The translations under genes were made by a program, and so were the position numbers. The notes under the pieces are model-generated. The model made no database searches and had not been told where the DNA came from. It saw nothing but the letters and a program-made list of their open reading frames with translations. From the IMG/VR virus record IMGVR_UViG_3300006153_000006: a DNA stretch of 50,058 nt, one strand, 5' to 3'. The DNA is from a virus. Its lineage: Duplodnaviria > Heunggongvirae > Uroviricota > Caudoviricetes. Below, piece after piece: positions 3,142-47,686 of the stretch (its first letter is position 1; every line of letters begins with the position of its first letter).

Positions 3142-4377
3142 ATGGAACAAAAAAGAAAGAAAATCATGATTGTGGACGCCCGGATGGGACGGGGAAAATC
3201 CTCTGCCGCCATCCAATATATGAACCGATATAAGGGAAGCAAGTGCTTTTTGTACATCACTCCATATCTGACGGAAGTTGATCGAGTGTGTGAGAAGTGT
3301 GACTTTGAGGAACCGGATTGTGATTACACAAGTAAATCCAATCGACTCAAGGCACTGATGAAGAAGCGGTGCAACATCGCCTCCACACATTCCCTCTTTT
3401 CCATTATGGATGAGGAAGCACTATCTCTGGCGAGAGAACAGGGATACAACCTTATTGTGGACGAAAGTCTCTCCGTGATACAGGGCGTCCCCGTATCGCC
3501 GAAGGACAAGCAAATCATAATGACCAACCTTGCCTCTGTTGACGATGCCGGAAGAGTCCATTGGAACGAGGCCGACTACGAAGGCAAGTTTGACGGATAT
3601 AAGGCTATGGCGGATGCGGGAACGCTGTACCACTGCGGTGAAACGATGTATGAGGTCATGAGCCCGGACAGGTTTGAGGTATTTGACGAGATCTATATCC
3701 TGACCTATCTGTTTGACGGGCAGCTCCAGAAAGCCTACTTTGACTTTTTCGGGTTTGAGTACGACATCATTGGCGTGGAGCAGAATGAAGCGGGGTATTT
3801 CTTCTCTGGCAAGCCGGACGCTCCTCCCAATGTAGACTACTCTGAGCTTATCCACATCGTTGGCATGGACGATGGAGCTGACGCCAGGATGAACGCCGTA
3901 GGCAATGGAAGAACGGCTCTGTCAGCTTCGTGGTTCAAGCAGAGAAGCCGCAACAGCGAAGACATAAAAAACCTGCGTGGACATATGAGAAATTTTTTTG
4001 AGCGAAAGGCCAAGAGCTCTGCGGCCCGACGGCTGTGGACAACGTTCAAGGATGCTCGGGAATGGATGTACGGCCCCAAGAACCGATACGCCTCCAGCTT
4101 CCTATCCCTGAATGCCAGGGCGACAAACGCATATAAGGACGCCGACTGCGTCGCCTATCTGGTCAACCGCTTTGTTGACCCGAACATCGCCAAGTTCTTC
4201 GCCGAGAAGGATATCGTGATCGACCCGGAGAAGTTCGCGCTTTCGGAAATGCTCCAGTTTATCTGGAGAAGCGCCATTCGTGAGAACAAGCCGATCAACC
4301 TATACATACCAAGCATGAGGATGCGCTCCCTCCTGTTGGAGTGGATCGAGCAAACAAGCAACGGAGGTAATACATAA
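3142..4377 (+). CDS. P-loop NTPase, SF2 helicase-like (positionally like SPbeta YonV)
   Basis: Walker A DARMGRGKS, motif Ia-like LYITPYLTEV, Walker B NLIVDES, motif VI-like QFIWRSAIR; RBS GGAGG. Confidence 0.8.
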   Translation: MEQKRKKIMIVDARMGRGKSSAAIQYMNRYKGSKCFLYITPYLTEVDRVCEKCDFEEPDCDYTSKSNRLKALMKKRCNIASTHSLFSIMDEEALSLAREQGYNLIVDESLSVIQGVPVSPKDKQIIMTNLASVDDAGRVHWNEADYEGKFDGYKAMADAGTLYHCGETMYEVMSPDRFEVFDEIYILTYLFDGQLQKAYFDFFGFEYDIIGVEQNEAGYFFSGKPDAPPNVDYSELIHIVGMDDGADARMNAVGNGRTALSASWFKQRSRNSEDIKNLRGHMRNFFERKAKSSAARRLWTTFKDAREWMYGPKNRYASSFLSLNARATNAYKDADCVAYLVNRFVDPNIAKFFAEKDIVIDPEKFALSEMLQFIWRSAIRENKPINLYIPSMRMRSLLLEWIEQTSNGGNT

Positions 4378-4542: not shown

Positions 4543-4550
4543 CACACTAT

Positions 4551-4566
4551 CAAGTTAATTAAATAG
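4551..4566 (+). promoter_or_regulatory. Recurrent 16-bp motif copy (CAAGTTAATTAAATAG) immediately before the RNA polymerase RBS
   Basis: 4549-4569 matches 42119-42139 at 19 of 21 positions. Confidence 0.7.
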
Positions 4567-4578
4567 TGAGGTGAGCCA

Positions 4579-7323
4579 ATGGCAAAACAGTTAGCGTGTC
4601 AGAGGTATATCTACAAGATCCGCAGCAGCCGTTTGCGGAAGGCGAAATGGAATCTCACTCTCCCCCTCTCTGAGGCGCGAAGGAACGACGAGCTGATCTC
4701 CCTGGCCGATAGCCAGGTGCTTCGTTGGTTGGATGAACTGAACGGCATCAAAGATGCAGACAGTCAAGCAAGAGAGCTGAAGGCAGAGATCCGTCGTGTC
4801 CGCAAGGAAAGCAACAGTCTGCAAAACAGACGTAAGTTGCGTAAGCTCTACGAGCAGCTCGATGCCCTCCAGTTCAAGCCGGACTATTTGTGCGTCATCA
4901 TGGACAAAGAGAAGGATTATATCCGGGCCTGCCGTGGGTTCAAGATCAACGGCGTCAAGTATCATCGGCTTCTGGGAACGAACGGCGGCGTAAAGAACTC
5001 CACCATCGTCTTTGTCAGTGACCGGCATTCTGCGGAGCTTCGCCGCCGCATCGATAACGGGCGGAACCCGGAGATGGAGCTGGTGGCTGCAAAGTTGGAG
5101 GCATACAAGGCGCTCACTTGCAGCGCATCGAACCCCGTCTCCATGCCACACGGTATTCTGGTCGTGCCGGATTGCGAGACTGAGTTTATCTCAGATATCG
5201 TCTATTTGAATGACGAGGGCGATGGCGAGCCGGTCATGGAGGAGCGGAAGGGCGTGCCTGTCCAGCTTGATGAGTCGGATGGGTACGGCATCATGCTCCC
5301 CTCTCTGGCGGACAGGTGGGCGAAGGAGCTTGGGCTCGACTACCGGCCCAGCGGCGTGAACACCCGGTTTGCCTGGGAGAAGGGTATGGTCTTCTGCTTC
5401 GACTTTCTGGAGTTCGCCGAACAAGTGGCCAAGAGCTACATCGTCAAGGACGCTTGGGGAAATGAAAAAGATATCCGGGATGTGGAGTTGATCCTCACCA
5501 CATCCATGGTCAAGCTGTGGGACAGTTATCCGAGTTGCGAGGAGTATGTCCGGAATTGCATGGAGAACAAATATTCCTTCGGTGTTGCCAAGGTCTGCCC
5601 CAAGGCTTTGGAGTCCGAGCGCAATCTCAATTACCAGTTCATCCAGAGCTATGACTTGAGCGACGAGGATATCGACAGGTTGATTGCCCCGACGATGAAC
5701 GAGATCCGAGATGTGCTTAGCGACGACTGGCGAAAGACCATACTGTTTCTGAAGGGCGCAGGGCTGAATGAAAACAATGTGTGCCGCATCGACAACGATT
5801 ACGCCAAAGCCATCATGATAGACCAGCGTATGATAGACGACCCGTTTGTGCAGAGCGAGCTGTTCTCTCTTATCAAGACGCGGATCAACGAGGCGAAGGT
5901 TGGGGTGGTTAAAGTACACGGAAACTACTCCATCGTATCCGGCGACCCTTATTCCCTATGCCAAAGCATTTTTGGCATGGAGGTTACGGGCATCCTCAAG
6001 GCCGGTGAGATCTATAACGGCTACTGGGTCGATACGGCCTCCCGGCGTCTCGCCTGCTTCCGGGCTCCCATGACCTGTCACAACAACGTGCGTGCGGTCA
6101 TGGTGAACGACAGCGATGAGGCCAGACACTGGTACCGGAACATGGTGGCCTGCACCGTCTTCAACTCTTGGGATACGGCGGCTCACGCCCTGAATGGCAT
6201 GGACAAGGACGGAGACCTGGTTCTGCTCACAGACAACCAAGTGTTGGTAAACAAGCTCCGCCCCCTTCCCGCTTTGATGTGTGTTCAGAGGAAGGCCAAG
6301 AAGCGGATCGTTACAGAGGAGGACGCTATCCGGGCGAATATCAACAGCTTCGGAGATGATATTGGGAAGATCACCAACCGAATCACGGCGATGTTTGAGG
6401 TGCAGTCAAAGTTCAAGCCCGGGAGCCCAGAGTATGAGGAGCTTGACTACCGCATCAAATGCGGTCAACTTTTTCAGCAGAACGCCATCGATAAGGCCAA
6501 GGGTATTATTGCCAAGCCGATGCCACGTTCTTGGCACGACAGGCATTACGCACTTGCCATTGAGGACGTGGAGAAGCGAAAGCTGTACCTTTCCATTTTG
6601 GCCGATAAGAAGCCGTACTTTATGCGGTATATCTACCCAGACCTTGCGAAGCAGTATAACACATACATAAAGAACACCAACAAGAAGGCCAAGCGGCAGT
6701 TCCAGATGACCATCGACGAGCTGCTTGAGCTTGACCACATGAAGTTGGACGACGAGCAGGCGGAGTTCATCCACTATTACACCAAGTGTATGCCTGTGGG
6801 CGTGGGCGACTGTGTGACCAACCGCATCTGCAAACGGTTCGAGGCCGCGTTTGACGGCTATGTGGGTAAGCACAACTCCACGACGGGGTTTGACTACACC
6901 ATCATGAAAAGCGGTGCAGAGTATACCCAAACCCAGTACAGCACCATCCTGCGGCTCTATGAGGATTACACGAAGCGGCTTCACAGTTACGCCGTGTACG
7001 CCGCCAGAGAGCGTGTGGACGCCGATGAGGTCTTGTCCCATATCAGTATGATGAAGCATGAGTTTTCGGAGTCGTGTGGACAGGTATGCTCCAACTCCAC
7101 CACGCTGTGCGACATCATGCTCGATATATGCTACAAGAGGAGCTCCAGCAAACGCTTTGTGTGGAGTATATGCCACAACGAGATCATAGACAATCTGCTC
7201 CGAAACACGGGCGGGGTGATCCACTTCCCTGTTCTGGCGCAGGACGGGGACATCGAGTTCTGCGGAAACCGTTTCGTGCTTTGTGAGAAAGAGATCGGAG
7301 GAAACGAATGGGCATCGTCTTAA
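4579..7323 (+). CDS. yonO: YonO-like single-subunit RNA polymerase (cellular RdRP/double-psi beta-barrel family)
   Basis: 914 aa; catalytic GMDKDGD (DxDGD), SDGYG, FRAP (RxP) and GDPYS motifs recognised from the QDE-1/YonO family; SPbeta-like context. Confidence 0.88.
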   Translation: MAKQLACQRYIYKIRSSRLRKAKWNLTLPLSEARRNDELISLADSQVLRWLDELNGIKDADSQARELKAEIRRVRKESNSLQNRRKLRKLYEQLDALQFKPDYLCVIMDKEKDYIRACRGFKINGVKYHRLLGTNGGVKNSTIVFVSDRHSAELRRRIDNGRNPEMELVAAKLEAYKALTCSASNPVSMPHGILVVPDCETEFISDIVYLNDEGDGEPVMEERKGVPVQLDESDGYGIMLPSLADRWAKELGLDYRPSGVNTRFAWEKGMVFCFDFLEFAEQVAKSYIVKDAWGNEKDIRDVELILTTSMVKLWDSYPSCEEYVRNCMENKYSFGVAKVCPKALESERNLNYQFIQSYDLSDEDIDRLIAPTMNEIRDVLSDDWRKTILFLKGAGLNENNVCRIDNDYAKAIMIDQRMIDDPFVQSELFSLIKTRINEAKVGVVKVHGNYSIVSGDPYSLCQSIFGMEVTGILKAGEIYNGYWVDTASRRLACFRAPMTCHNNVRAVMVNDSDEARHWYRNMVACTVFNSWDTAAHALNGMDKDGDLVLLTDNQVLVNKLRPLPALMCVQRKAKKRIVTEEDAIRANINSFGDDIGKITNRITAMFEVQSKFKPGSPEYEELDYRIKCGQLFQQNAIDKAKGIIAKPMPRSWHDRHYALAIEDVEKRKLYLSILADKKPYFMRYIYPDLAKQYNTYIKNTNKKAKRQFQMTIDELLELDHMKLDDEQAEFIHYYTKCMPVGVGDCVTNRICKRFEAAFDGYVGKHNSTTGFDYTIMKSGAEYTQTQYSTILRLYEDYTKRLHSYAVYAARERVDADEVLSHISMMKHEFSESCGQVCSNSTTLCDIMLDICYKRSSSKRFVWSICHNEIIDNLLRNTGGVIHFPVLAQDGDIEFCGNRFVLCEKEIGGNEWASS

Positions 7324-9795: not shown

Positions 9796-10830
9796 ATGCC
9801 AAGAAAAACGAGACAGAATGACATCACGAGCCACGAGCTTTTGAGTCAAATCAACAAGGGAAATATGAGGCTGAAGCAGGATTTCCTCGACTATCTGAGG
9901 TCTGTTCAACGGAGCCCAAAAACGATAGATGGGTACGACAATGACCTTGACATCATGCTGACATGGAACCATCAGTTCAACGGTGACAAGGATTTTATCA
10001 AAATCAGCAAGCGTGACTGGGCTTCGTTCCAAAACTGGCTTATCAATACGAACGGCAACTCTCCAGCTCGTGTGCGGAGGATTAAGTCCGCCGTATCTTC
10101 CATGAGCAACTATATTGCCAATATTCTTGACGACGAAGAGGAGTTTAAGGATTTCAGGCCATCTATCCGAAAGATCGAGAACCCGGCCATGCAGGAGGTC
10201 AGAAAGAAGACTGTGTGGGAGGACGACGACCTGGACAAGCTGCTTACCGCTCTGACAGAGCAGGGACAGTACAAGAAGGCATGTATGCTTGCACTTGCCA
10301 TGTGCAGTGGGCGAAGGAAGTCGGAGTTGTGCCGGTTCCGTGTGGACGACTTCAAGGATGAGAACCTTGTGTGTGGGGGTGCTCTCTACAAGACAACTGA
10401 AAAGATGAAAACAAAGGGCTTTGGCCTTGGCAAGTATATTTATTGTTTTACGCTTGCCAAGCAGTTCAAGCCATATTTTGATGCCTGGATGAAGGAACGT
10501 GGGGACAAGGGTATTGAAAGCGAATGGCTCTTCCCTTCTGAGTTGGATCCTGGAGAGCAGATGAGCGAGACGACACTGAACAGCTGGGCGGTCACATTCA
10601 GCCGTATGACCGGCGAGGATTTCTATTGGCACAGTCTTCGGCATTATTTTACGACACACCTTGCAAAGGCGGGATTGCCGGACGGCGTGATACAGGAGAT
10701 CGTCGGATGGGAGTCTGCCGACATGGTGAACGTTTACAAGGACATAAGTGCAGAGGAACAGATCGCTCAGTTCTTTGATGAGAACGGAGAGATACGCAGA
10801 GATGCGCAGAAGTCTATCGCGGATATTTGA
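9796..10830 (+). CDS. Tyrosine recombinase with N-terminal SAM-like domain
   Basis: SGRRKSEL (R), HSLRHYF (H-x-x-R), IVGWES (W), MVNVY (Y); ATG 9796 follows RBS GAGGTGG. The track start at 9703 lies inside the tRNA. Confidence 0.92.
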   Translation: MPRKTRQNDITSHELLSQINKGNMRLKQDFLDYLRSVQRSPKTIDGYDNDLDIMLTWNHQFNGDKDFIKISKRDWASFQNWLINTNGNSPARVRRIKSAVSSMSNYIANILDDEEEFKDFRPSIRKIENPAMQEVRKKTVWEDDDLDKLLTALTEQGQYKKACMLALAMCSGRRKSELCRFRVDDFKDENLVCGGALYKTTEKMKTKGFGLGKYIYCFTLAKQFKPYFDAWMKERGDKGIESEWLFPSELDPGEQMSETTLNSWAVTFSRMTGEDFYWHSLRHYFTTHLAKAGLPDGVIQEIVGWESADMVNVYKDISAEEQIAQFFDENGEIRRDAQKSIADI

Positions 10831-40931: not shown

Positions 40932-42119
40932 ATGAGCGAGAAAATTTTTGACATTAGGGCGCAGCTGAAGGGCGATACCCTTGAAAACTGGAATGCGGCG
41001 AACCCCGTTCTGTTGGCGAACGAACTCGCCATCGTGACAGTCCCGGCAGAAAGCGGCGCAGTCGCCCAGGAGCCCGCCATTCTTTTCAAGGTAGGCAACG
41101 GTACTGACGCATTCAAGGCGCTGCCCTACGTCTCCGCCAAGGCCGCCGATGTGTACGACTGGGCAAAGGCGGCTGCCAAGCCAACCTACAGTGCGAGCGA
41201 GATCTCCGGCCTTGCTGATTATATCTCCGGCGAGATCCAGGATACCAACACCCAGTATAAGCTGGAGCAGGACGCCACTGACGGCCACATCCTGAAGCTG
41301 TACAGCAAGGCCGTGGGCGCCACTGACTGGACTGTGGAGGCTACCATCACCACTGTGGACACTGAGTACGACGATACCGCTCTGGCCGGTCGTGTGACCG
41401 CTCTGGAGACCCTTGTTGGTTCTACCGCAGTAGCTACCCAGATCGCCAACGCCATTGCCGCTCTGAACCTGGCTGAAACCTATGCCACAAAGAACGAGCT
41501 TAAGGCTGTGTCTGATCTGGTTGGCGCATTGCCCGAGGGCGCAACAGCCACCACCGTGGTGGGCTATGTGGATGAGAAGGCCGCTGCCGCTGAGTACGAC
41601 GATACCGAAGTGAAGGCCAGCATCCAGGCCAACACCACCGCCATTGCCACCCTGAACGGCACCGGCGAGGGCAGCGTGGACAAGAAGGTGGCCGACGCCG
41701 TGGCCGCTATCGTGGCCGATGCTCCTGAGGCCTACGACACCCTGAAGGAGATCTCCGACTGGATCAGCAGCCACGCAGAGGACGCCTCCGCCATGAACTC
41801 CCAGATCAACACCAACAAGACCGACATCGCTGCCCTGAAGGCACTGGTGGGCACTCTGCCCGAAACCGCCGAGGCACAGACCGTTGTAGACTATATCTCC
41901 GAGGTTGTGGGCGTGGAGCTGGGTAAGCTGGGCGATCTGGCCTCCAAGGATAAGGTGGCCAAGACTGACCTTGAAGACGCTCTGAAAACCGAGATCGATG
42001 GCAAGGCAAACGATGCCGACCTGGCGGCTGTCGCCAAGAGCGGCAAAATTGCCGACCTGGTTCAGGACGCAGGCAGCTATATCGTCCTGAACTGCGGCAG
42101 CGCAACTACCGTTATTTAA
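40932..42119 (+). CDS. Fibre protein with hyaluronidase/Mtd N-terminal-like domain and long coiled coil
   Basis: DTLENWNAANPVLLANEL...FKVGNG...FKALPY; Ala/Thr-rich heptads; strong codon bias. Confidence 0.75.
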   Translation: MSEKIFDIRAQLKGDTLENWNAANPVLLANELAIVTVPAESGAVAQEPAILFKVGNGTDAFKALPYVSAKAADVYDWAKAAAKPTYSASEISGLADYISGEIQDTNTQYKLEQDATDGHILKLYSKAVGATDWTVEATITTVDTEYDDTALAGRVTALETLVGSTAVATQIANAIAALNLAETYATKNELKAVSDLVGALPEGATATTVVGYVDEKAAAAEYDDTEVKASIQANTTAIATLNGTGEGSVDKKVADAVAAIVADAPEAYDTLKEISDWISSHAEDASAMNSQINTNKTDIAALKALVGTLPETAEAQTVVDYISEVVGVELGKLGDLASKDKVAKTDLEDALKTEIDGKANDADLAAVAKSGKIADLVQDAGSYIVLNCGSATTVI

Positions 42120-42138
42120 TCAAGATAATTAAATAGCG
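42110..42138. promoter_or_regulatory. 11-7-11 inverted-repeat site containing the recurrent motif
   Basis: CGTTATTTAAT-CAAGATA-ATTAAATAGCG; arms are 10/11 complementary. Confidence 0.6.
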
Positions 42139-42153
42139 AACAGCGAAAACAAG

Positions 42154-42181
42154 CCCGCCTCGTCTTGGTTGACGGGGCGGG
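42154..42181 (+). terminator. Hairpin, possible terminator
   Basis: CCCGCCTCGTC/GACGGGGCGGG 11-bp stem followed by TCTTG. Confidence 0.55.
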
Positions 42182-42202
42182 TCTTGTGATAAAGGAGGGC
42201 TT

Positions 42203-42547
42203 ATGAGCGCAATGGAATTTATGGGCCGTGTGCAGACCAAGCGCGACACAAGCGCAAACTGGACGGCGGCCAACCCTGTCCTACTGGACGGGGAAGAGAT
42301 CCTTGTTGACACTGCCAGCGGTGAGGTACGCAAGAAGATCGGCGACGGTGTGAACCCCTACATCAAATTGCCATTTGCAGACGAGGCGATCCGCAATCTG
42401 ATCGGCGAAAGGGTCGCCACGAACCAAGGTGTGGAGCACGCCGGAAAATTTCTCGGGATCGGCGCAGACGGTTTGGTAAAGCCGATCACACAGCCCACCG
42501 GCGGAGGCGCGAAAACATGGGGCGACCTGGCCGGTATTACAAGCTGA
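42203..42547 (+). CDS. Short protein with hyaluronidase/Mtd N-terminal-like domain
   Basis: RDTSANWTAANPVLLDGE...KIGDGVNPYIKLPF; paralogous to the N-terminus of 40932..42119. Confidence 0.75.
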   Translation: MSAMEFMGRVQTKRDTSANWTAANPVLLDGEEILVDTASGEVRKKIGDGVNPYIKLPFADEAIRNLIGERVATNQGVEHAGKFLGIGADGLVKPITQPTGGGAKTWGDLAGITS

Positions 42548-42566
42548 GCGAAAGGAGTGAACAACA

Positions 42567-44708
42567 ATGGAATATACGACAAAAGCAAACATGAAAAAGC
42601 CCGGATATAACGATACAGTCGATATCCAGGATATCAACGATAATTTTGATACCGTAGACGAACACATCGGTGCTTCCATCGTATCCACCGAGGGGGTACA
42701 CGGTCTGCGGTTCAACACGCAGGACGAGGTGCTGGAGGTCTACAACGAGGCCACGGGTGCCTGGGAAGAGGTGGCAGGCGGCGCAGGGGGCATCGCTCCG
42801 CTGGACGTGAGCGGCATCTCCGTGGATGTTGGCAACGGGCGTGTCTACCTGAAGTGGAGCGACCCGGAGGACACCGAGATCCAGGGTACCGTGGTGTGTG
42901 AATGGGGCGGCACAAAGGTGGTGCGGAAGGCCGGGAGCTATCCTACCGGTGTAAAGGACGGCGTGCTTGTAGTGGACAACACTACCCGTGACGCATACAA
43001 GGATACGGCATTCACCGACTCCGGCCTTACAAACGGGACTACCTACTACTACCAGTTCTTCCCCTATTCCACCGGGAGGACTGTAAACGTGAACGAGGTC
43101 AACCGCATTTCGGCCACCCCGAACCGGAAGCCCATCGACACCGTGCCCACTCAGAACGGTACGCTCACCTACAACGGCTCTTCTCAGTCCCCTACTTGGA
43201 CTGGGTATGACAGCAACAAAATGACGATGGACGGCGTGACAAGCGGCATCAACGCAGGTGATTACACAGCGACCTTCACTCCGCTGGACGACTACTGCTG
43301 GAACGATGGCACCACAGCAGCGAAAAGTGTTCAGTGGACGATCAATCGACAGAGTACCGCTATACCCGTTCAGAGCGGCACGCTTACCTACAACGGAAGC
43401 GCACAGTCCCCTACTTGGACTGGGTATGACAGCAACAAAATGACGATGGGCGGTACCACTTCCGGGACTAATGCAGGAAGCTACAATGCCACCTTTACCA
43501 TTGAGTCAAACTACATCTGGGCAGATGGAACAATTACTGCAAAAACGGTAGCGTGGAATATCAACAAGAAGGCCGGTTCGCTGGGCATCAATCCAACCTC
43601 TATCACGCTTAACCTTGACAAGAAAACAGCAACGATCGCTGTAACTCGTGAAGGCGATGGGACAATCAGCGCTACATCCAGCAATACCAGTGTAGCCACG
43701 GTGAGTGTGAACGGAAATACCATTACGGTAAGTCATGTAAATCAAACTAATGGTACTGCCACCATCACAGTGAAGGTAGCCGAGGGTACAAATCACCTTG
43801 CTCCAGCCAACAAGACCTGCGCCGTTACGGCAACATTTATTGTGGCAACGTTGAACGACAACTCTTGGGCGGCCATCAGCTCCGTTTCCGCAACGGGCGC
43901 CAACTATTGGAGCGTGGGCGACCGTAAGAGTGTCCACATCAACGGCACGGTTGGCACTCTGGCCGTCAACGCAACGTACTGGGTGTACATTTTGGGCTTC
44001 AACCACAACGAGTCGAAGGAGGGTAAGGGCATCCACTTCGGTGGGTTCAAGACCGCTCAGACAGGCGGTACCGATATCTGTCTGGTAGACAGCTACTACA
44101 ACAGTTATCAGAGCTACAACGGCACCAAGTATTTCCAGATGAACCACAGAAACTCCAGCCAATACGGTTCCAACTACGGCGGTTGGGCGGCCTGCGATAT
44201 GCGGTACGACATTCTCGGTTCTACCGACAAAGCCCCATCTGGATATGGTTCTGATAAGTCCACCTCTGCCACCGGGCAGGATCCCTCAACGACTTGCGCA
44301 ACAAAGCCCGTGGCCAACACGTTGATGGCGGCGCTTCCAGCAGACCTTCGTGCGGTGATGAAGCCCATGACAAAGTTCACGGACAACAAGGGTAACAGCT
44401 CCAACGTAGCAGGCAACGTGACGCAGACCATCGACTACCTTCCCCTTCTGGCCGAGTTCGAGATCTTCGGAGCGAGAAGTTACGCCAATCAGTATGAGCA
44501 GAATTATCAGGCGCAGTACGCCTATTATTCTGCTGGTAACTCGAAGGTGAAGTACCGCCATAGTTCCACGGGCTCCACTGCTTTTTGGTGGGAGCGTTCC
44601 CCTTATTACAACAACAGCTACTACTTCTGCTTTGTGTACACCAACGGCATCGCCGACTACAACACTGCGAGTAATTCCTTTGGGCTGGCCCCCGCTTTCA
44701 AAATCTAA
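42567..44708 (+). CDS. DGR target protein: putative tail fibre/adhesin with FN3-like, repeated Ig-like and C-terminal variable (DUF6273/C-type-lectin-like) domains
   Basis: 713 aa; fibre-type N-terminus; 73-aa tandem repeat; C-terminus WWERSP...FGLAPAFKI encoded by the VR. Confidence 0.88.
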   Translation: MEYTTKANMKKPGYNDTVDIQDINDNFDTVDEHIGASIVSTEGVHGLRFNTQDEVLEVYNEATGAWEEVAGGAGGIAPLDVSGISVDVGNGRVYLKWSDPEDTEIQGTVVCEWGGTKVVRKAGSYPTGVKDGVLVVDNTTRDAYKDTAFTDSGLTNGTTYYYQFFPYSTGRTVNVNEVNRISATPNRKPIDTVPTQNGTLTYNGSSQSPTWTGYDSNKMTMDGVTSGINAGDYTATFTPLDDYCWNDGTTAAKSVQWTINRQSTAIPVQSGTLTYNGSAQSPTWTGYDSNKMTMGGTTSGTNAGSYNATFTIESNYIWADGTITAKTVAWNINKKAGSLGINPTSITLNLDKKTATIAVTREGDGTISATSSNTSVATVSVNGNTITVSHVNQTNGTATITVKVAEGTNHLAPANKTCAVTATFIVATLNDNSWAAISSVSATGANYWSVGDRKSVHINGTVGTLAVNATYWVYILGFNHNESKEGKGIHFGGFKTAQTGGTDICLVDSYYNSYQSYNGTKYFQMNHRNSSQYGSNYGGWAACDMRYDILGSTDKAPSGYGSDKSTSATGQDPSTTCATKPVANTLMAALPADLRAVMKPMTKFTDNKGNSSNVAGNVTQTIDYLPLLAEFEIFGARSYANQYEQNYQAQYAYYSAGNSKVKYRHSSTGSTAFWWERSPYYNNSYYFCFVYTNGIADYNTASNSFGLAPAFKI
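43185..43449 (+). repeat. Internal tandem domain duplication (period 219 bp = 73 aa)
   Basis: 46 bp identical at 43185-43230 and 43404-43449; protein repeat GTLTYNG.QSPTWTGYDSNKMTM. Confidence 0.9.
44574..44699 (+). repeat. DGR variable repeat (VR)
   Basis: 126 bp, colinear with the TR; 15 mismatches, all at TR adenines. Confidence 0.97.
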
Positions 44709-44724
44709 TCCAAAATCGAATAAA

Positions 44725-44746
44725 TCCGCCAGCGAAAGCTGGCGGA
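44725..44746 (+). promoter_or_regulatory. DGR target-recognition hairpin/cruciform
   Basis: TCCGCCAGC-GAAA-GCTGGCGGA: perfect 9-bp stem with 4-nt loop, 25 bp after the VR. Confidence 0.85.
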
Positions 44747-44859
44747 GAGACCAGCCATGGAAACAAAAAAAAGCAATCACCCCGACCTGCTGTGGGCCTT
44801 GCAGCCTGCGGCAGGAGCGGGGCGTTTGAATATTCCGGGAACAAAAGGAGTGAAAAAAT

Positions 44860-45420
44860 ATGTCAGTTCTAAAGTCCCACCGTTCGGAGAGCAAGGCGGA
44901 ATATGTGAGTATCGCAAATCAGATATGCAATGACACCATCGAGTTCTTGTCACGGCTTTCCGCACGCTATTCCAGGCTGTTAGCGCCAAAGACCGCAGGG
45001 CTTGCGGCGGACGTACTCATCTACGCCGAGTCCGCTAACAACACCTACCCGTCAGACAAGGTAAAGGCCGAGAAGCGGGAGGAGTACCTTGTCAGCGCAG
45101 CGGCCTCTCTGCACTCACTCGACGATATGCTCGCGCATTGCTACGAAATCATGATGAAGAACCCGGAGGGGTGTTTTGTCGGGAGCGACGGCAAGCGCAC
45201 GGTCAGCTCCTCAGAGGCGACACGCAAGTTAGAAAATATGTCGCAGGAGTTAGGTGAGCTCATCGACAAGGAGGGTAACAAGCTTGCAGGCGTAATGAAG
45301 TCAGACAAGGAACGCGCCAAAGCCGCCAGGCAATCCGCCAGGAAGAAGGAGGTGGAGCAGGAACAGGAGGAAACGGCGCAAGAAGAGCCAACGCAAGAAA
45401 ATTCTGTAGAAAGGACATAA
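44860..45420 (+). CDS. avd: DGR accessory protein (Avd-like four-helix bundle)
   Basis: MSVLKSHRSES N-terminus; helical; RBS AAAAGGAG; located between VR and TR. Confidence 0.82.
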   Translation: MSVLKSHRSESKAEYVSIANQICNDTIEFLSRLSARYSRLLAPKTAGLAADVLIYAESANNTYPSDKVKAEKREEYLVSAAASLHSLDDMLAHCYEIMMKNPEGCFVGSDGKRTVSSSEATRKLENMSQELGELIDKEGNKLAGVMKSDKERAKAARQSARKKEVEQEQEETAQEEPTQENSVERT

Positions 45421-45480
45421 AAGTTTTGCTATATGGGTGTGTTTCTGTAAAACGTGTCGATTGTCTCAGTGCAGTCGCTG

Positions 45481-45606
45481 TCCACTGCTAATTGGTGGGA
45501 GCGTTCCCCTAATTACAACAACAGCAACAACTTCTGCAATGTGAACACCAACGGCAACGCCAACAACAACAATGCGAGTAATTCCAATGGGCTGGCCCCC
45601 GATTTC
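45481..45606 (+). repeat. DGR template repeat (TR)
   Basis: 42 codons in the VR frame, 16 of them AAY; 39 adenines, none at codon position 3. Confidence 0.97.
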
Positions 45607-45863
45607 GTATGCCAGAAATGGCTGGGTTGAACACAGTAACTCCGAAGGCGAGTGAACTATAACCCATACGAAAGGAGAAGCACTTCCCGTCTGGTGCGTG
45701 AACACCAGCAAAACTGCCACTTGATACTGCTGCACGAACGCCGCCGGGAAACCGAGCGTGCATGGCGAAGGACGCACCTTACTTCGTTTCATGTGTAGGA
45801 GTAAAGCCGGTTATACGGTGTCCTACAAGACACCGGTACAAGTGGCGAATAAAAATTATTATT
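45607..45863 (+). ncRNA. Structured 3' spacer of the DGR template RNA
   Basis: Long-range helix GCCACTTG (45716-45723)/CAAGTGGC (45839-45846) enclosing hairpins; additional hairpin CTGGTG/CACCAG at 45691-45708. Confidence 0.6.
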
Positions 45864-47042
45864 ATGAGCCGTAGAAAAGGCAGATATGAAAGACGCCAGG
45901 AAAGGCGTGAAGAAAACCGCATCAAGAGATGCAAGGAAGTTGGAGGCCTCAAGGAAGTCTTTAGCTTCAAGGATATGTATATGGCAGGCAAGAAATGCTG
46001 CAACGGAGTGCGATGGAAGAACAGCGTACAGAGGTTCGAGCAGCATCTGTTCTCAGGCACGGCCAAACGGCGGCGTGAGCTGCTCGACGGGACATGGAAG
46101 CCGGGTCACTATGTACACTTTACGCTGTGCGAGCGTGGAAAAGTGCGTCCAATCGACGCCCCGCGCATTCAGGACAGGCAAGTCCACAAGGTGTACACGA
46201 AAAAGGTTTTGCTTCCGCTCTATATGCCGCACATGATATACAACAATGGCGCCAGTTTGCCCGGAAAAGGCTTTGAATTTTCCAAGCGGCAGCTGAGAGA
46301 GGAGCTTCGGTGGCATTTCAGGCGGTATGGCCGCGAGGGGCAAATCATTCTCATCGACTTCAAGCAGTTCTTCCCTTCCGTATCTCATGAGGAGCTGTTC
46401 AAGCGGCACGACAAGTATATTCTTAACCCGGAAATCAGGAAAGTGGGCGACGATGTTATCAACACTGTGCCCGGTGGGAAGGGTATGCCGCTGGGCGTGG
46501 AGCCGAGCCAGGCTGAAATGATCGCTTTCCCGTCCGAACTCGACAACTACGTCAAGTGCCAGCTTCAGATGGACTGCGCCGGGCACTATATGGACGACTA
46601 CTACATCATCGTCCCGCCGGGTAAAGACCCGAAGGAAATCATGCGGCTTGTTACGGACAAGGCGGAGAGCCTGAAGCTGACTGTCAGCCGCACAAAATCC
46701 AAAATCATCCCGCTGACCAAGCCGTTCCGATACTGTAAAGCAAAATACACACTGACGGAAACAGGCAGAGTCGTTGTAAACGGCAACAGGGACAGCGTGA
46801 AGCGGGCGAGGAGAAAGATAAAAGCGTTCTATCAGAAGATACAAAACGGTGAGATGGACTATGAAGACCTGTGGACTTCAGTGAACGGTATGCTGGCCTA
46901 CTTTGAGTCCTATGACGACCACACACGGGTGCTGAAGCTGCGCAGGCTCTTTTACGCTATCTTCGGGTTCTCCTGCGAACGCATCGAAAACTTCAGAATG
47001 AGAGGAGCAGAACATGAAATACATTGCACACAGACGCTTTAA
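45864..47042 (+). CDS. brt: DGR reverse transcriptase
   Basis: QDRQVH, LPGKG, DFKQFF, MPLGVEPSQ (LGxxxSQ) and YMDD motifs; no maturase/endonuclease domain. The alternative in-frame start at 45762 lies inside the structured spacer. Confidence 0.95.
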   Translation: MSRRKGRYERRQERREENRIKRCKEVGGLKEVFSFKDMYMAGKKCCNGVRWKNSVQRFEQHLFSGTAKRRRELLDGTWKPGHYVHFTLCERGKVRPIDAPRIQDRQVHKVYTKKVLLPLYMPHMIYNNGASLPGKGFEFSKRQLREELRWHFRRYGREGQIILIDFKQFFPSVSHEELFKRHDKYILNPEIRKVGDDVINTVPGGKGMPLGVEPSQAEMIAFPSELDNYVKCQLQMDCAGHYMDDYYIIVPPGKDPKEIMRLVTDKAESLKLTVSRTKSKIIPLTKPFRYCKAKYTLTETGRVVVNGNRDSVKRARRKIKAFYQKIQNGEMDYEDLWTSVNGMLAYFESYDDHTRVLKLRRLFYAIFGFSCERIENFRMRGAEHEIHCTQTL

Positions 47043-47412
47043 GAGCAACGCCATCTGTGGCCACGTTAATATCCCAGCGCTCACAGAGCTTGAGAGCAGA
47101 GATGGGGTCATTATGCTTGGCGAGAAGCCAATTTGCTACGAAAAGAGCGAAAACGCCCACCAATTCTTTGCGCAGAATGAGGACGGCAACGGTCTGAAGC
47201 GTGGGCAGCTTACACAGGCGATCCAGAAAACGCTTGGGAAGCGGGACGAACGCCATCAGGAGCGGTGGGACAAGGTGTGGGATGACCCGGATTGTCAGAA
47301 GTATAAGCGAGCTGACCACGAAGACTACTGGCTTTGGAACCACGAATGGTTCCTCGCAGACATTGATACGCTGCGTCACATTGCCGCACTTGTCGGCTCA
47401 AAGGAGGTTTGA
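47014..47412 (+). CDS. Hypothetical protein overlapping the RT 3' end
   Basis: 132 aa; RBS GAGGAG inside the RT gene; 29-nt overlap; Trp/His-rich C-terminus. Confidence 0.75.
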   Translation: MKYIAHRRFKSNAICGHVNIPALTELESRDGVIMLGEKPICYEKSENAHQFFAQNEDGNGLKRGQLTQAIQKTLGKRDERHQERWDKVWDDPDCQKYKRADHEDYWLWNHEWFLADIDTLRHIAALVGSKEV

Positions 47413-47416
47413 AATC

Positions 47417-47686
47417 ATGTATCGGATTATCAATATGCAGGGCGACGAGCTTGGCATGGTGGATCAAGTGCTTTACATCAAGGTCACCGAAAGCGGCAGC
47501 TTCGCTCCGTGCGCACAGGAAGAGGCTGTCGGCGTGGCTTTGAACAGCGAGGCATATAATTTGCTGGGGCACGACGACATTGAGGGTGCGGACACCGTTA
47601 TCGTTTCCAAATGCGATGGCGGGGCGATCATGGCGAGCCAACAGAACGCTCTGGACAATATGCTTATCACGATGTTGGAGGGCTGA
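47417..47686 (+). CDS. Hypothetical protein (possible fibre chaperone)
   Basis: 89 aa from ATG 47417 after AAGGAGG. Confidence 0.7.
   Translation: MYRIINMQGDELGMVDQVLYIKVTESGSFAPCAQEEAVGVALNSEAYNLLGHDDIEGADTVIVSKCDGGAIMASQQNALDNMLITMLEG

What the first reader, a model, noticed from the sequence alone, without database searches (positions are those of the whole stretch)
44574..47042. Complete, apparently functional diversity-generating retroelement
VR (44574-44699) and TR (45481-45606) align without gaps over 126 bp with 15 mismatches, every one at a TR adenine. The TR has 39 adenines, all at codon positions 1-2 (16 AAY codons), so mutagenesis cannot create a stop. A GC-rich element (GGGCTGGCCCCC) ends the repeat, after which VR and TR diverge (IMH/IMH*). 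A 9-bp GAAA hairpin follows, and avd and the RT (YMDD, LGxxxSQ) are intact. The family is established (Bordetella BPP-1 paradigm); its presence in a YonO-encoding SPbeta-like phage is the notable part.
Basis: partly seen in the sequence, partly recalled or inferred. Interest (0 to 1): 0.8.

Follow-up and report, generated by a model that had tools for sequence, protein, structure and literature searches.

The report
Active three-target DGR in gut phage
A 114-kb phage of rodent-gut clostridia carries a complete diversity-generating retroelement that is demonstrably rewriting the binding tips of three lectin-like proteins in nature; it is a very clean example of a known system, not a new kind.

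Summary
VR (44574-44699) and TR (45481-45606) align ungapped over 126 nt with 15 mismatches, all at TR adenines (Fisher p 2e-9). The TR has 39 adenines, all at codon positions 1-2, and 16 AAY codons; no stop codon is reachable.

The interpretation, a complete and functional DGR, is supported and extended:
- The RT falls inside the DGR clade (99/98 support).
- A full-length Rfam RT-2 RNA (129 bits) fills the TR-to-RT gap.
- The same TR serves two further VRs outside the window (genome 4260-4364 and 10077-10182, opposite strand), in small DUF6273 proteins.
- In near-identical phage contigs from other samples the TR is invariant, while all three VRs differ almost only at TR-adenine sites (VR1: 36 of 37 polymorphic sites).

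One of the 15 mismatches (A45602>C) is fixed in every allele of every VR, so it is an IMH/IMH* marker and not mutagenesis.

The YonO-like polymerase is real. DGR-type RTs occur in 15 of 16 related large phage records. The host is a gut clostridial anaerobe, so "SPbeta-like" holds only loosely.

The cassette type is already published (Faecalibacterium phage Taranis). This scan has met DUF6273 DGR targets in at least 35 other genomes, and it found these two remote VRs before.

The parts
42203..42547 (+). 114-aa protein with an Mtd N-terminal domain, directly upstream of target 1; probable fibre-attachment partner
   Evidence: Pfam PF18454 Mtd_N, E 5.6e-8, 33 bits against a cut-off of 26.3
42567..44708 (+). 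Target gene 1 (713 aa): Ig-like repeats followed by a C-terminal DUF6273 (C-type-lectin-like) domain that carries VR1
   Evidence: Pfam DUF6273 E 2e-9 at residues 586-713, weak Big_2 hit; phrog_37900; lies between tail genes and the lysis genes
44574..44699 (+). VR1, variable repeat (last 42 codons of target 1)
   Evidence: 126-nt ungapped match to the TR with 15/15 mismatches at TR-A; 6 distinct alleles in 7 contigs, with 36 of 37 polymorphic sites at TR-A
44682..44693 (+). GC-rich block GGGCTGGCCCCC at the 3' end of VR1, shared with the TR, VR2 and VR3; inferred 3' boundary of information transfer
   Evidence: Only four copies in the genome, one in each of the three VRs and one in the TR; the last variable A lies just before it and the fixed marker just after it
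44694..44727 (+). IMH-equivalent: VR-specific 34-nt segment (GCTTT...CTAATCC.AAATCGAATAAATCC) that crosses the stop codon
   Evidence: 22-29 of 34 identical among VR1, VR2 and VR3, but only 9-16 of 34 against the TR
44725..44746 (+). Target-site hairpin/cruciform: 9-bp GC-rich stem with a GAAA loop, 25 nt after VR1
   Evidence: DNA fold dG -13.9, z -4.5; VR2 and VR3 have different 8-bp stems at the same offset; fits the 7-10 bp stem, GRNA loop and 4-34 bp distance of PMC3240598
44860..45420 (+). Accessory protein (186 aa): Avd by fold, not by sequence
45481..45606 (+). TR, template repeat (intergenic, invariant)
   Evidence: 126/126 identical in every contig from other samples; template of VR1 (whole length) and of VR2 and VR3 (positions 21-126)
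45602..45602 (+). IMH* marker: A in the TR, C in every VR allele
   Evidence: Fixed in all alleles of VR1, VR2 and VR3
45622..45866 (+). [quoted passage not shown]
   Evidence: 129 bits against a gathering score of 40, E 2e-31, model positions 1-222. Found in the same slot in 6 of 6 related DGRs, while BPP-1 has RF03022 Phage_DGR there
45867..47042 (+). DGR reverse transcriptase (391 aa)
   Evidence: RVT_1; best solved match is bRT 8ub7_A, E 9e-13; LGVEPSQ at 209 and YMDD at 241; inside the DGR clade at 99/98; start set
4579..7323 (+). Context only, not part of the DGR: YonO-like single-subunit RNA polymerase (914 aa)
   Evidence: tblastn against SPbeta yonO 26% over residues 119-606, against Clostridium phage c-st 41%; Pfam PF05183 RdRP E 1.6e-15

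Best explanation
This is a complete diversity-generating retroelement of the BPP-1 type, in a 114-kb temperate siphovirus of rodent-gut Clostridia that has terminal repeats.

Inferred mechanism, by homology with the Bordetella element. A transcript containing the TR (45481-45606) and the downstream structured RT-2 RNA (45622-45866) is bound by the RT (45867-47042) together with the Avd-fold accessory protein (44860-45420). The RT copies the TR into cDNA and misincorporates opposite template adenines. The cDNA then replaces the homologous VR.

Recipients are marked by three features that the TR lacks or differs in: the GC-rich block, a conserved 34-nt VR-specific segment (the IMH equivalent, including a fixed C where the TR has A) and a downstream hairpin.

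Three genes are recipients: the tail-region protein at 42567-44708 (VR1), and two small DUF6273-only proteins encoded on the other strand outside the window (VR2 at genome 4260-4364, VR3 at genome 10077-10182). In each, the VR encodes the C-terminal surface of a C-type-lectin-like domain. Because all TR adenines sit at codon positions 1-2 (16 AAY codons), about 1e20 to 3e22 peptide variants are reachable without stops.

Shown here: the anatomy, RT clade membership, the Avd fold, the RNA family, and adenine-restricted natural variation at all three VRs under an invariant TR. Inferred: cDNA priming from the RT-2 RNA, a physical RT-Avd complex, and receptor binding by the targets.
For: - TR/VR statistics: 15/15, 15/15 and 21/21 mismatches at TR adenines for VR1, VR2 and VR3.
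- Natural activity: the TR is 126/126 identical in contigs from independent samples. VR1 has 6 alleles with 36 of 37 polymorphic sites at TR-A (Fisher p 8e-27). VR2 has 3 alleles with 28 of 28. VR3 has 8 alleles, all at TR-A apart from one site and one indel-shifted row.
- Flanks are 99.4-100% identical, and 62 of 70 substitutions in three ~5-kb loci lie inside the 126-nt VR.
- In run X4 the assembly breaks at 44576/44681, and two 164-nt contigs at depths 37.6 and 35.2 bridge a flank of depth 66-71.
- RT: best solved match is bRT; nearest plasmid matches sit next to annotated avd genes; in the tree it lies inside the DGR clade at 99/98, with group II intron RTs and the phage's own second, retron-like RT outside.
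- bRT catalytic D138, D215 and D216 and contact residues R74 and Q187 align to identical residues; I181 aligns to L (with residue roles).
- RT-2 RNA in the TR-RT slot here and in 6 of 6 related DGRs.
- Hairpins with three different stems at one offset, as required for BPP-1 homing (PMC3240598).
- Targets carry DUF6273, which has been described as a C-lec-like DGR target domain (PMC10743442, PMC11792537).
Against: - No direct molecular evidence: no cDNA, no raw-read variant spectrum (only contigs were available) and no RNA run.
- The accessory protein has no detectable sequence similarity to Avd (hhalign probability 0.65%). Helical bundles give high Z by arrangement alone. This copy is acidic (pI 5.4), whereas Avd and most family members are basic.
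- The loops of the VR2 hairpin (AAAC) and the VR3 hairpin (GAAAA, 5 nt) depart from the GRNA 4-nt consensus.
- Two non-adenine differences occur among the alleles: T>G in L073 and C>T in L081.
- Differences between samples prove activity in the lineage's recent past, not in this particular genome copy.
Confidence: 0.95

Rival explanations
1. The cassette is structurally intact but silent in this genome. The VR differences between samples would then be relics of earlier bursts, now only inherited and sorted by selection.
For: Only contigs were available, not reads. One other sample (L013) carries exactly the same VR1 allele as the window, and L080 and L086 carry the same VR3 allele as the genome. 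Run X4 shows two discrete alleles and not a cloud. One relative (G010) has a disrupted RT, so decay does happen in the clade.
Against: All parts are intact. Loci that differ at 3 or fewer flank sites in 5 kb differ at 16-26 VR sites, so the VR turnover is very recent relative to background divergence. Contigs break at VR1 and VR3 in several assemblies, which suggests heterogeneity within samples.
Confidence: 0.1
2. The 186-aa ORF is not the functional Avd equivalent. It would be an unrelated helical protein that happens to sit between the target and the TR, and the RT would work alone or with another factor.
For: No sequence similarity to Avd. Foldseek gave no significant E-value. This copy is acidic. 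Four-helix bundles are a common arrangement.
Against: The top four of 48,161 chains are all Avd/S23-family members. The gene holds the canonical position and is conserved there in Taranis (gp70) and in 893 homologues, most of them basic. The complex model scores 0.81 against 0.01, with the interface on the RT N-terminal extension.
Confidence: 0.08
3. The TR/VR similarity comes from ordinary gene conversion or recombination among paralogous DUF6273 gene ends, with no reverse transcription involved.
For: Three paralogous gene ends and one non-coding copy share the repeat.
Against: Recombination cannot confine about 100 differences to the adenines of one invariant copy, nor explain the adjacent DGR-clade RT, Avd-fold protein and RT-2 RNA.
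Confidence: 0.01

Closest known systems
Faecalibacterium phage FP_Taranis DGR (NC_047914; also phages Roos and Pioen)
   Same: Same cassette type. The DUF6273 target is annotated as a DGR target, the 152-aa hypothetical protein gp70 is homologous to the accessory protein here, an RT-2 RNA lies directly upstream of the RT, and the RT is 54% identical.
   Different: Taranis is a 54-kb phage with no YonO-like polymerase, and one target is annotated in its cassette. Here the genome is 114 kb and one TR serves three VRs, two of them tens of kb away on the other strand. The accessory protein here has an extra 35-residue charged tail and is acidic.
Bordetella phage BPP-1 DGR (mtd-avd-TR-brt)
   Same: The gene order target(VR)-accessory-TR-structured RNA-RT is the same. 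So are adenine-specific TR-to-VR transfer, the GC-rich 3' block with IMH/IMH* differences, the GAAA hairpin downstream of the VR, and an Mtd_N domain in the fibre module. The RT is in the same clade.
   Different: The RT is only 24% identical. Avd similarity is at fold level only. The spacer RNA belongs to a different Rfam family (RT-2, not Phage_DGR). The target domain is DUF6273 rather than the Mtd C-lec. The Mtd_N domain sits on a separate 114-aa protein. There are three targets instead of one.
Two-target gut-phage DGRs (phages nd4 and nd12 with 'tentaclins'; Toutatisvirus with a remote VR)
   Same: One TR diversifies a large and a small DUF6273 protein, and a VR can lie far from the cassette (17.5 kb in Toutatisvirus) (PMC10743442; bioRxiv 10.1101/2024.10.15.618418; PMC11792537).
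   Different: Here there are three targets. The two remote ones lie about 59 and 65 kb away along the record (about 49-55 kb across the terminal repeat), in inverted orientation, and use only TR positions 21-126.
Bacillus phage SPbeta (YonO RNA polymerase)
   Same: A large temperate siphovirus of Firmicutes that encodes a YonO-family single-subunit polymerase and a tape measure protein of about 2400 aa.
   Different: Polymerase identity is 26%. The host is a gut clostridial anaerobe. The integrase is of the tyrosine type. The portal is nearest to other phage groups. No YonO phage named (SPbeta group, c-st, Enterocloster phages) is among the 40 RT matches listed (24 further matching records were not listed).

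Membership tests
Diversity-generating retroelement (DGR) | Reverse transcriptase of the monophyletic DGR clade with [I/L/V]GxxxSQ and YxDD motifs | tested here: met
   Tree: inside the DGR clade at 99/98, with group II intron RTs and the phage's second, retron-like RT outside. Best PDB match is bRT, E 9e-13. LGVEPSQ and YMDD present. Far below the curated cut-offs for group II, retron and Drt models.
Diversity-generating retroelement (DGR) | TR/VR pair whose differences fall at TR adenines | tested here: met
   15/15 (VR1), 15/15 (VR2) and 21/21 (VR3).
Diversity-generating retroelement (DGR) | VR at the 3' end of a protein-coding target, with TR adenines placed so that no stop can arise | tested here: met
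   The VRs are the last ~35-42 codons of three ORFs. All A are at codon positions 1-2 and 0 codons can reach a stop.
Diversity-generating retroelement (DGR) | GC-rich 3' element with VR-specific IMH against TR-specific IMH* | tested here: met
   GGGCTGGCCCCC is shared. The 34 nt after it are conserved among the VRs (22-29/34) but not with the TR (9-16/34). The A45602/C difference is fixed.
Diversity-generating retroelement (DGR) | Hairpin/cruciform downstream of the VR (7-10 bp GC-rich stem, 4-nt GRNA loop, 4-34 bp away; PMC3240598) | tested here: met
   VR1 meets it fully (9 bp, GAAA, 25 nt away). VR2 and VR3 have 8-bp stems at the same offset, but their loops are AAAC and GAAAA.
Diversity-generating retroelement (DGR) | Accessory variability determinant (Avd) next to the TR | tested here: met
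Diversity-generating retroelement (DGR) | Structured spacer RNA between TR and RT that primes cDNA synthesis | tested here: inconclusive
   A conserved structured RNA (RT-2) is in the right place here and in 6 of 6 relatives. Its priming function and priming nucleotide could not be tested.
Diversity-generating retroelement (DGR) | Adenine-restricted VR diversity in populations under an invariant TR | tested here: met
   VR1: 36 of 37 polymorphic sites at TR-A. VR2: 28 of 28. VR3: all but one. The TR is identical in all contigs.
Diversity-generating retroelement (DGR) | RT-dependent cDNA and homing | not testable with these tools
   Needs experiments; no raw reads or RNA runs were available.
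Avd / S23 ribosomal IVS protein family (Pfam PF05635) | Sequence match to the family profile | tested here: not met
   No Pfam hit at E 0.01 or below. hhalign against BPP-1 Avd gives probability 0.65%. No PDB sequence match.
Avd / S23 ribosomal IVS protein family (Pfam PF05635) | Four-helix-bundle protomer | tested here: met
   AF2 pLDDT 82.7 with helices 14-30, 35-61, 67-100 and 117-174. The top four structural matches are family members.
Avd / S23 ribosomal IVS protein family (Pfam PF05635) | Positively charged pentameric barrel | tested here: inconclusive
   The pentamer was not tested. This copy has pI 5.4, whereas homologues have pI 8.4-9.4 and bAvd 9.55.
DGR variable proteins with a C-type-lectin fold | Target domain adopts the C-lec fold with the VR on its surface | tested here: inconclusive
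Rfam RF03077 (RT-2 RNA) | Covariance-model score above the gathering threshold | tested here: met
   129 bits against 40, full length.
SPbeta-like phages | YonO-family RNA polymerase | tested here: met
   26% identity to yonO, E about 1e-24; Pfam RdRP.
SPbeta-like phages | Close relationship of the virion module and host to the Bacillus SPbeta group | tested here: not met
   The best portal matches are Brevibacillus, Alicyclobacillus and large Bacillus siphoviruses at 31-37%. Relatives lie in Oscillospiraceae and Lachnospiraceae genomes.

The most novel reading that the evidence does not exclude
In this clade of YonO-type gut phages the DGR may do more than switch tail-fibre tropism. Two of its three targets are small, leaderless, single-domain lectin-like proteins encoded far from the virion module. 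They could be exchangeable adaptor tips or soluble binders, not fibre proteins. The cassette's target operon also shares a 21-nt motif with the yonO-like gene (42119-42139 and 4549-4569), so the phage's own polymerase might time TR and target transcription, and hence diversification, to late lytic growth. In addition, RT-2 would be a second, structurally distinct class of DGR priming RNA.
Probability: 0.15. Interest if true: 0.55.

Novelty: new member of a known kind. Interest (0 to 1): 0.4.

Why it matters
This is a textbook-quality natural DGR. One invariant template serves three recipients, with allele series from independent gut samples that map the transfer boundaries: the 3' limit lies inside the GC block, and the remote VRs need only about 10 nt of 5' homology.

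It adds three useful annotations:
- A large family (893 hits, typically 151 aa) of unannotated phage proteins are Avd by fold.
- The orphan Rfam motif RT-2 is placed in the TR-RT slot, where the DGR spacer RNA of BPP-1 lies.
- DGR-type RTs recur across a clade of 90-140-kb YonO-type phages of gut Clostridia.

None of this changes how DGRs are understood. It gives a good system for asking what small stand-alone DUF6273 targets do.

Tried and rejected
- Foldseek against the PDB gave no match at E 0.001 or below, for either the accessory protein or target 3. The VIA-align searches were needed.
- Sequence routes to Avd all failed: Pfam, PDB phmmer and hhalign.
- NCBIfam and PADLOC hold no DGR-specific RT model. 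They gave only sub-threshold generic RT hits and nothing for the accessory protein.
- The sigma-70 promoter and terminator scan of 42000-47500 was not above the shuffles. No promoter for the TR RNA could be named.
- No RNA holder was listed among the sequencing runs, so expression is untested.
- All runs were Logan contigs, and at 80% likeness contigs of related phages also mapped. The per-site 'other letters' table therefore could not be used for an adenine/non-adenine count within a sample. Only the assembly break and the two bridging contigs in X4 were used.
- Contigs that carry the gene upstream of target 3 end at or inside VR3. That suggests heterogeneity but is not counted as proof.
- My first co-occurrence test (5 of 5) was biased, because the relatives had been found through a DGR-target homologue. 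I repeated it on records chosen through the polymerase.
- I considered and dropped a search for the TR:RT-2 priming duplex, because it cannot be validated computationally.

Full report
**1. Observation**

The window holds a 126-nt direct repeat, 44574-44699 and 45481-45606, ungapped and 88% identical. All 15 mismatches have A in the downstream copy (12 A>T, 2 A>C, 1 A>G). That copy has 39 adenines, 20 at codon position 1 and 19 at position 2 of the frame of the ORF that holds the upstream copy, and 16 AAY codons. Enumeration shows that no codon can mutate to a stop. About 3e22 peptides are reachable. A is 31% of the repeat, and Fisher's test for 15/39 against 0/87 gives p = 2.4e-9.

**2. The parts**

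*Target 1.* This is the 713-aa ORF 42567-44708. It has a C-terminal DUF6273 domain (E 2e-9) and lies downstream of the tape measure, Dit and tail genes and upstream of the lysis genes. The 114-aa ORF directly upstream carries the Mtd N-terminal domain above Pfam's threshold.

*RT.* The best solved match is chain A of 8ub7, the Bordetella DGR ribonucleoprotein (E 9e-13, against 3.6e-4 for a group II intron RT). The catalytic aspartates and the contact residues R74 and Q187 of bRT align to identical residues, and I181 aligns to L (residue roles). Among phages the RT matches DGR phages, from Faecalibacterium phage Taranis (54%) to BPP-1 Brt (24% over 88% of its length). Among plasmids its best matches sit beside annotated avd genes, and group II LtrA proteins score 8-12 orders of magnitude weaker. 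In a 12-sequence maximum-likelihood tree it lies inside the DGR clade (99/98). Group II intron RTs (99/99) and the phage's own second, retron-like RT fall outside. It is far below the curated cut-offs of the group II, retron and Drt models. A relative has a stop just upstream of the conserved MSRRKG start, so the RT begins at 45867.

*RT-2 RNA.* A full-length Rfam RT-2 RNA (RF03077, 129 bits against a gathering score of 40) occupies 45622-45866. The same family lies directly upstream of the RT in Taranis and in five related large phages. BPP-1 has RF03022 (Phage_DGR) in that slot. The paper that described these motifs linked only RT-10 to a DGR and speculated that other RT motifs serve other DGRs (PMC5737381). 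By position, RT-2 corresponds to the DGR spacer RNA in this lineage. Its priming role is inferred, not shown.

**3. Beyond the window**

The window is the minus strand of positions 64001-114030 of a complete 114,030-bp virus record with direct terminal repeats. The TR has two more matches in that genome, at 4260-4364 and 10077-10182 on the other strand. These cover TR positions 21-126, with 15/15 and 21/21 mismatches at TR adenines. They end two small ORFs of 258 aa and 219 aa, each with a single DUF6273 domain.

All three VRs share the GC block and then a 34-nt segment that is conserved among them (22-29 of 34) but not with the TR (9-16 of 34). They also share a C where the TR has A at 45602, and a hairpin with a different stem at the same offset. 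These features correspond to the IMH, IMH* and cruciform of BPP-1 (PMC3240598). The VR2 and VR3 loops (AAAC and GAAAA) depart from the GRNA consensus.

An earlier agent of this scan reported the two remote VRs from the other window (e1-1854514). I found them independently.

**4. Activity**

The exact accessory protein occurs on 65 contigs. In contigs from independent samples the TR is 126/126 identical, while VR1 differs from the window at 16-27 sites. Across alleles:

| VR | Distinct alleles / contigs | Polymorphic sites at TR adenines |
|---|---|---|
| VR1 | 6 of 7 | 36 of 37 (p 8e-27) |
| VR2 | 3 of 4 | 28 of 28 |
| VR3 | 8 of 11 | all, apart from one site and one row shifted by an indel |

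The flanks are 99.4-100% identical, and 62 of 70 substitutions in three ~5-kb loci lie inside the VR.

In run X4 the assembly stops at 44576 and resumes at 44681. Two 164-nt contigs (depths 37.6 and 35.2) bridge a flank of depth 66-71, which is what two VR1 alleles in one sample would give. Contigs also end at VR3. Only contigs were available, with no raw reads and no RNA runs. The phage is found in mouse and rat gut metagenomes from about six studies.

**5. Context**

The 914-aa protein at 4579-7323 belongs to the YonO family: 26% identity to SPbeta yonO, 41% to Clostridium phage c-st, and a Pfam RdRP hit. I chose 16 IMG/VR records of about 90 kb or more through this polymerase alone. Fifteen have an RT match, including 8 of the 8 that are at least 90% complete. 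In one the RT is broken. None of the YonO phages named is among the 40 RT matches listed; 24 further matching records were not listed. Relatives of the polymerase lie mainly in Oscillospiraceae and Clostridia MAGs and in a Frisingicoccus prophage. The portal is nearest to Brevibacillus, Alicyclobacillus and large Bacillus siphoviruses, and the integrase is of the tyrosine type. 'SPbeta-like' therefore holds only in a loose sense. No paper in the library links DGRs with YonO phages.

**6. Comparison and verdict**

The cassette type is published: Taranis gp68 is annotated as a DGR target. DUF6273 targets, paired large and small targets, and a VR 17.5 kb from its TR are all described. This scan holds 36 related findings in at least 35 genomes.

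What is added here:
- a third target, and much greater distances to the remote targets;
- allele series that bound the transferred segment;
- the fold-level Avd assignment for a large unannotated family;
- the RT-2 link;
- clade-wide co-occurrence with a YonO-type polymerase.

This is a new member of a known kind. It is well documented and of moderate interest.

Noticed in passing
window 42119-42139, 4549-4569; genome 47266-47286: The 21-nt motif ATCAAGATAATTAAATAGCGA lies upstream of the Mtd_N/target-1 operon. It recurs with 2 mismatches upstream of the yonO-like gene, and with 3 mismatches once more in the genome. It could be a phage-polymerase promoter. A GC-rich hairpin sits between the motif and the ORF at 42203.
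   Followed up: partly
genome 16055-16948 (outside the window; L097): The phage has a second RT. Its best NCBIfam match is retron St85 (153 bits, below the cut-off of 235), and it falls outside the DGR clade in the tree. An earlier agent called it a retron array (e1-1854513).
   Followed up: partly
L012 / L072 (JGI 3300006204 contig), junction at window ~44803: A 55-kb contig joins unrelated DNA, including a sulfatase-family gene, to the cassette just downstream of the VR1 hairpin and lacks target 1 altogether. This is either a chimeric assembly at the variable region or a real rearrangement.
   Followed up: no
window 43146-43279 and 43365-43498: A 134-nt direct repeat (77% identical, 219 nt apart) inside target 1, consistent with tandem Ig-like modules (weak Big_2 hit).
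   Followed up: no
window 47014-47412: A 132-aa ORF overlaps the RT stop by 29 nt, belongs to phrog_29409 (unknown function) and follows the RT in every near-identical contig. A link to the DGR was not tested.
   Followed up: no
IMG/VR relative G010 (108 kb): In this related YonO-type phage the RT match is split and contains TGA and TAA stops, an apparently decaying DGR.
   Followed up: no
genome 2136-2636 and 6459-7100 (L006): Near the remote targets lie a gene for an ECF-type riboflavin transporter S component (Pfam E 1e-13) and a phrog_1491 'tail fiber protein' gene (E 5e-55). The second hints that the remote region may also encode virion-associated proteins.
   Followed up: no
window 44860-45420: This phage's Avd-like protein has a 35-residue charged C-terminal tail and an acidic pI (5.4), an outlier in an otherwise basic family. 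The RT has a very basic N-terminus (SRRKGRYERRQERREENRIKR).
   Followed up: partly
PDB 9qa6 residues 32-282: [quoted passage not shown] Its paper calls this a domain of unknown function.
   Followed up: partly
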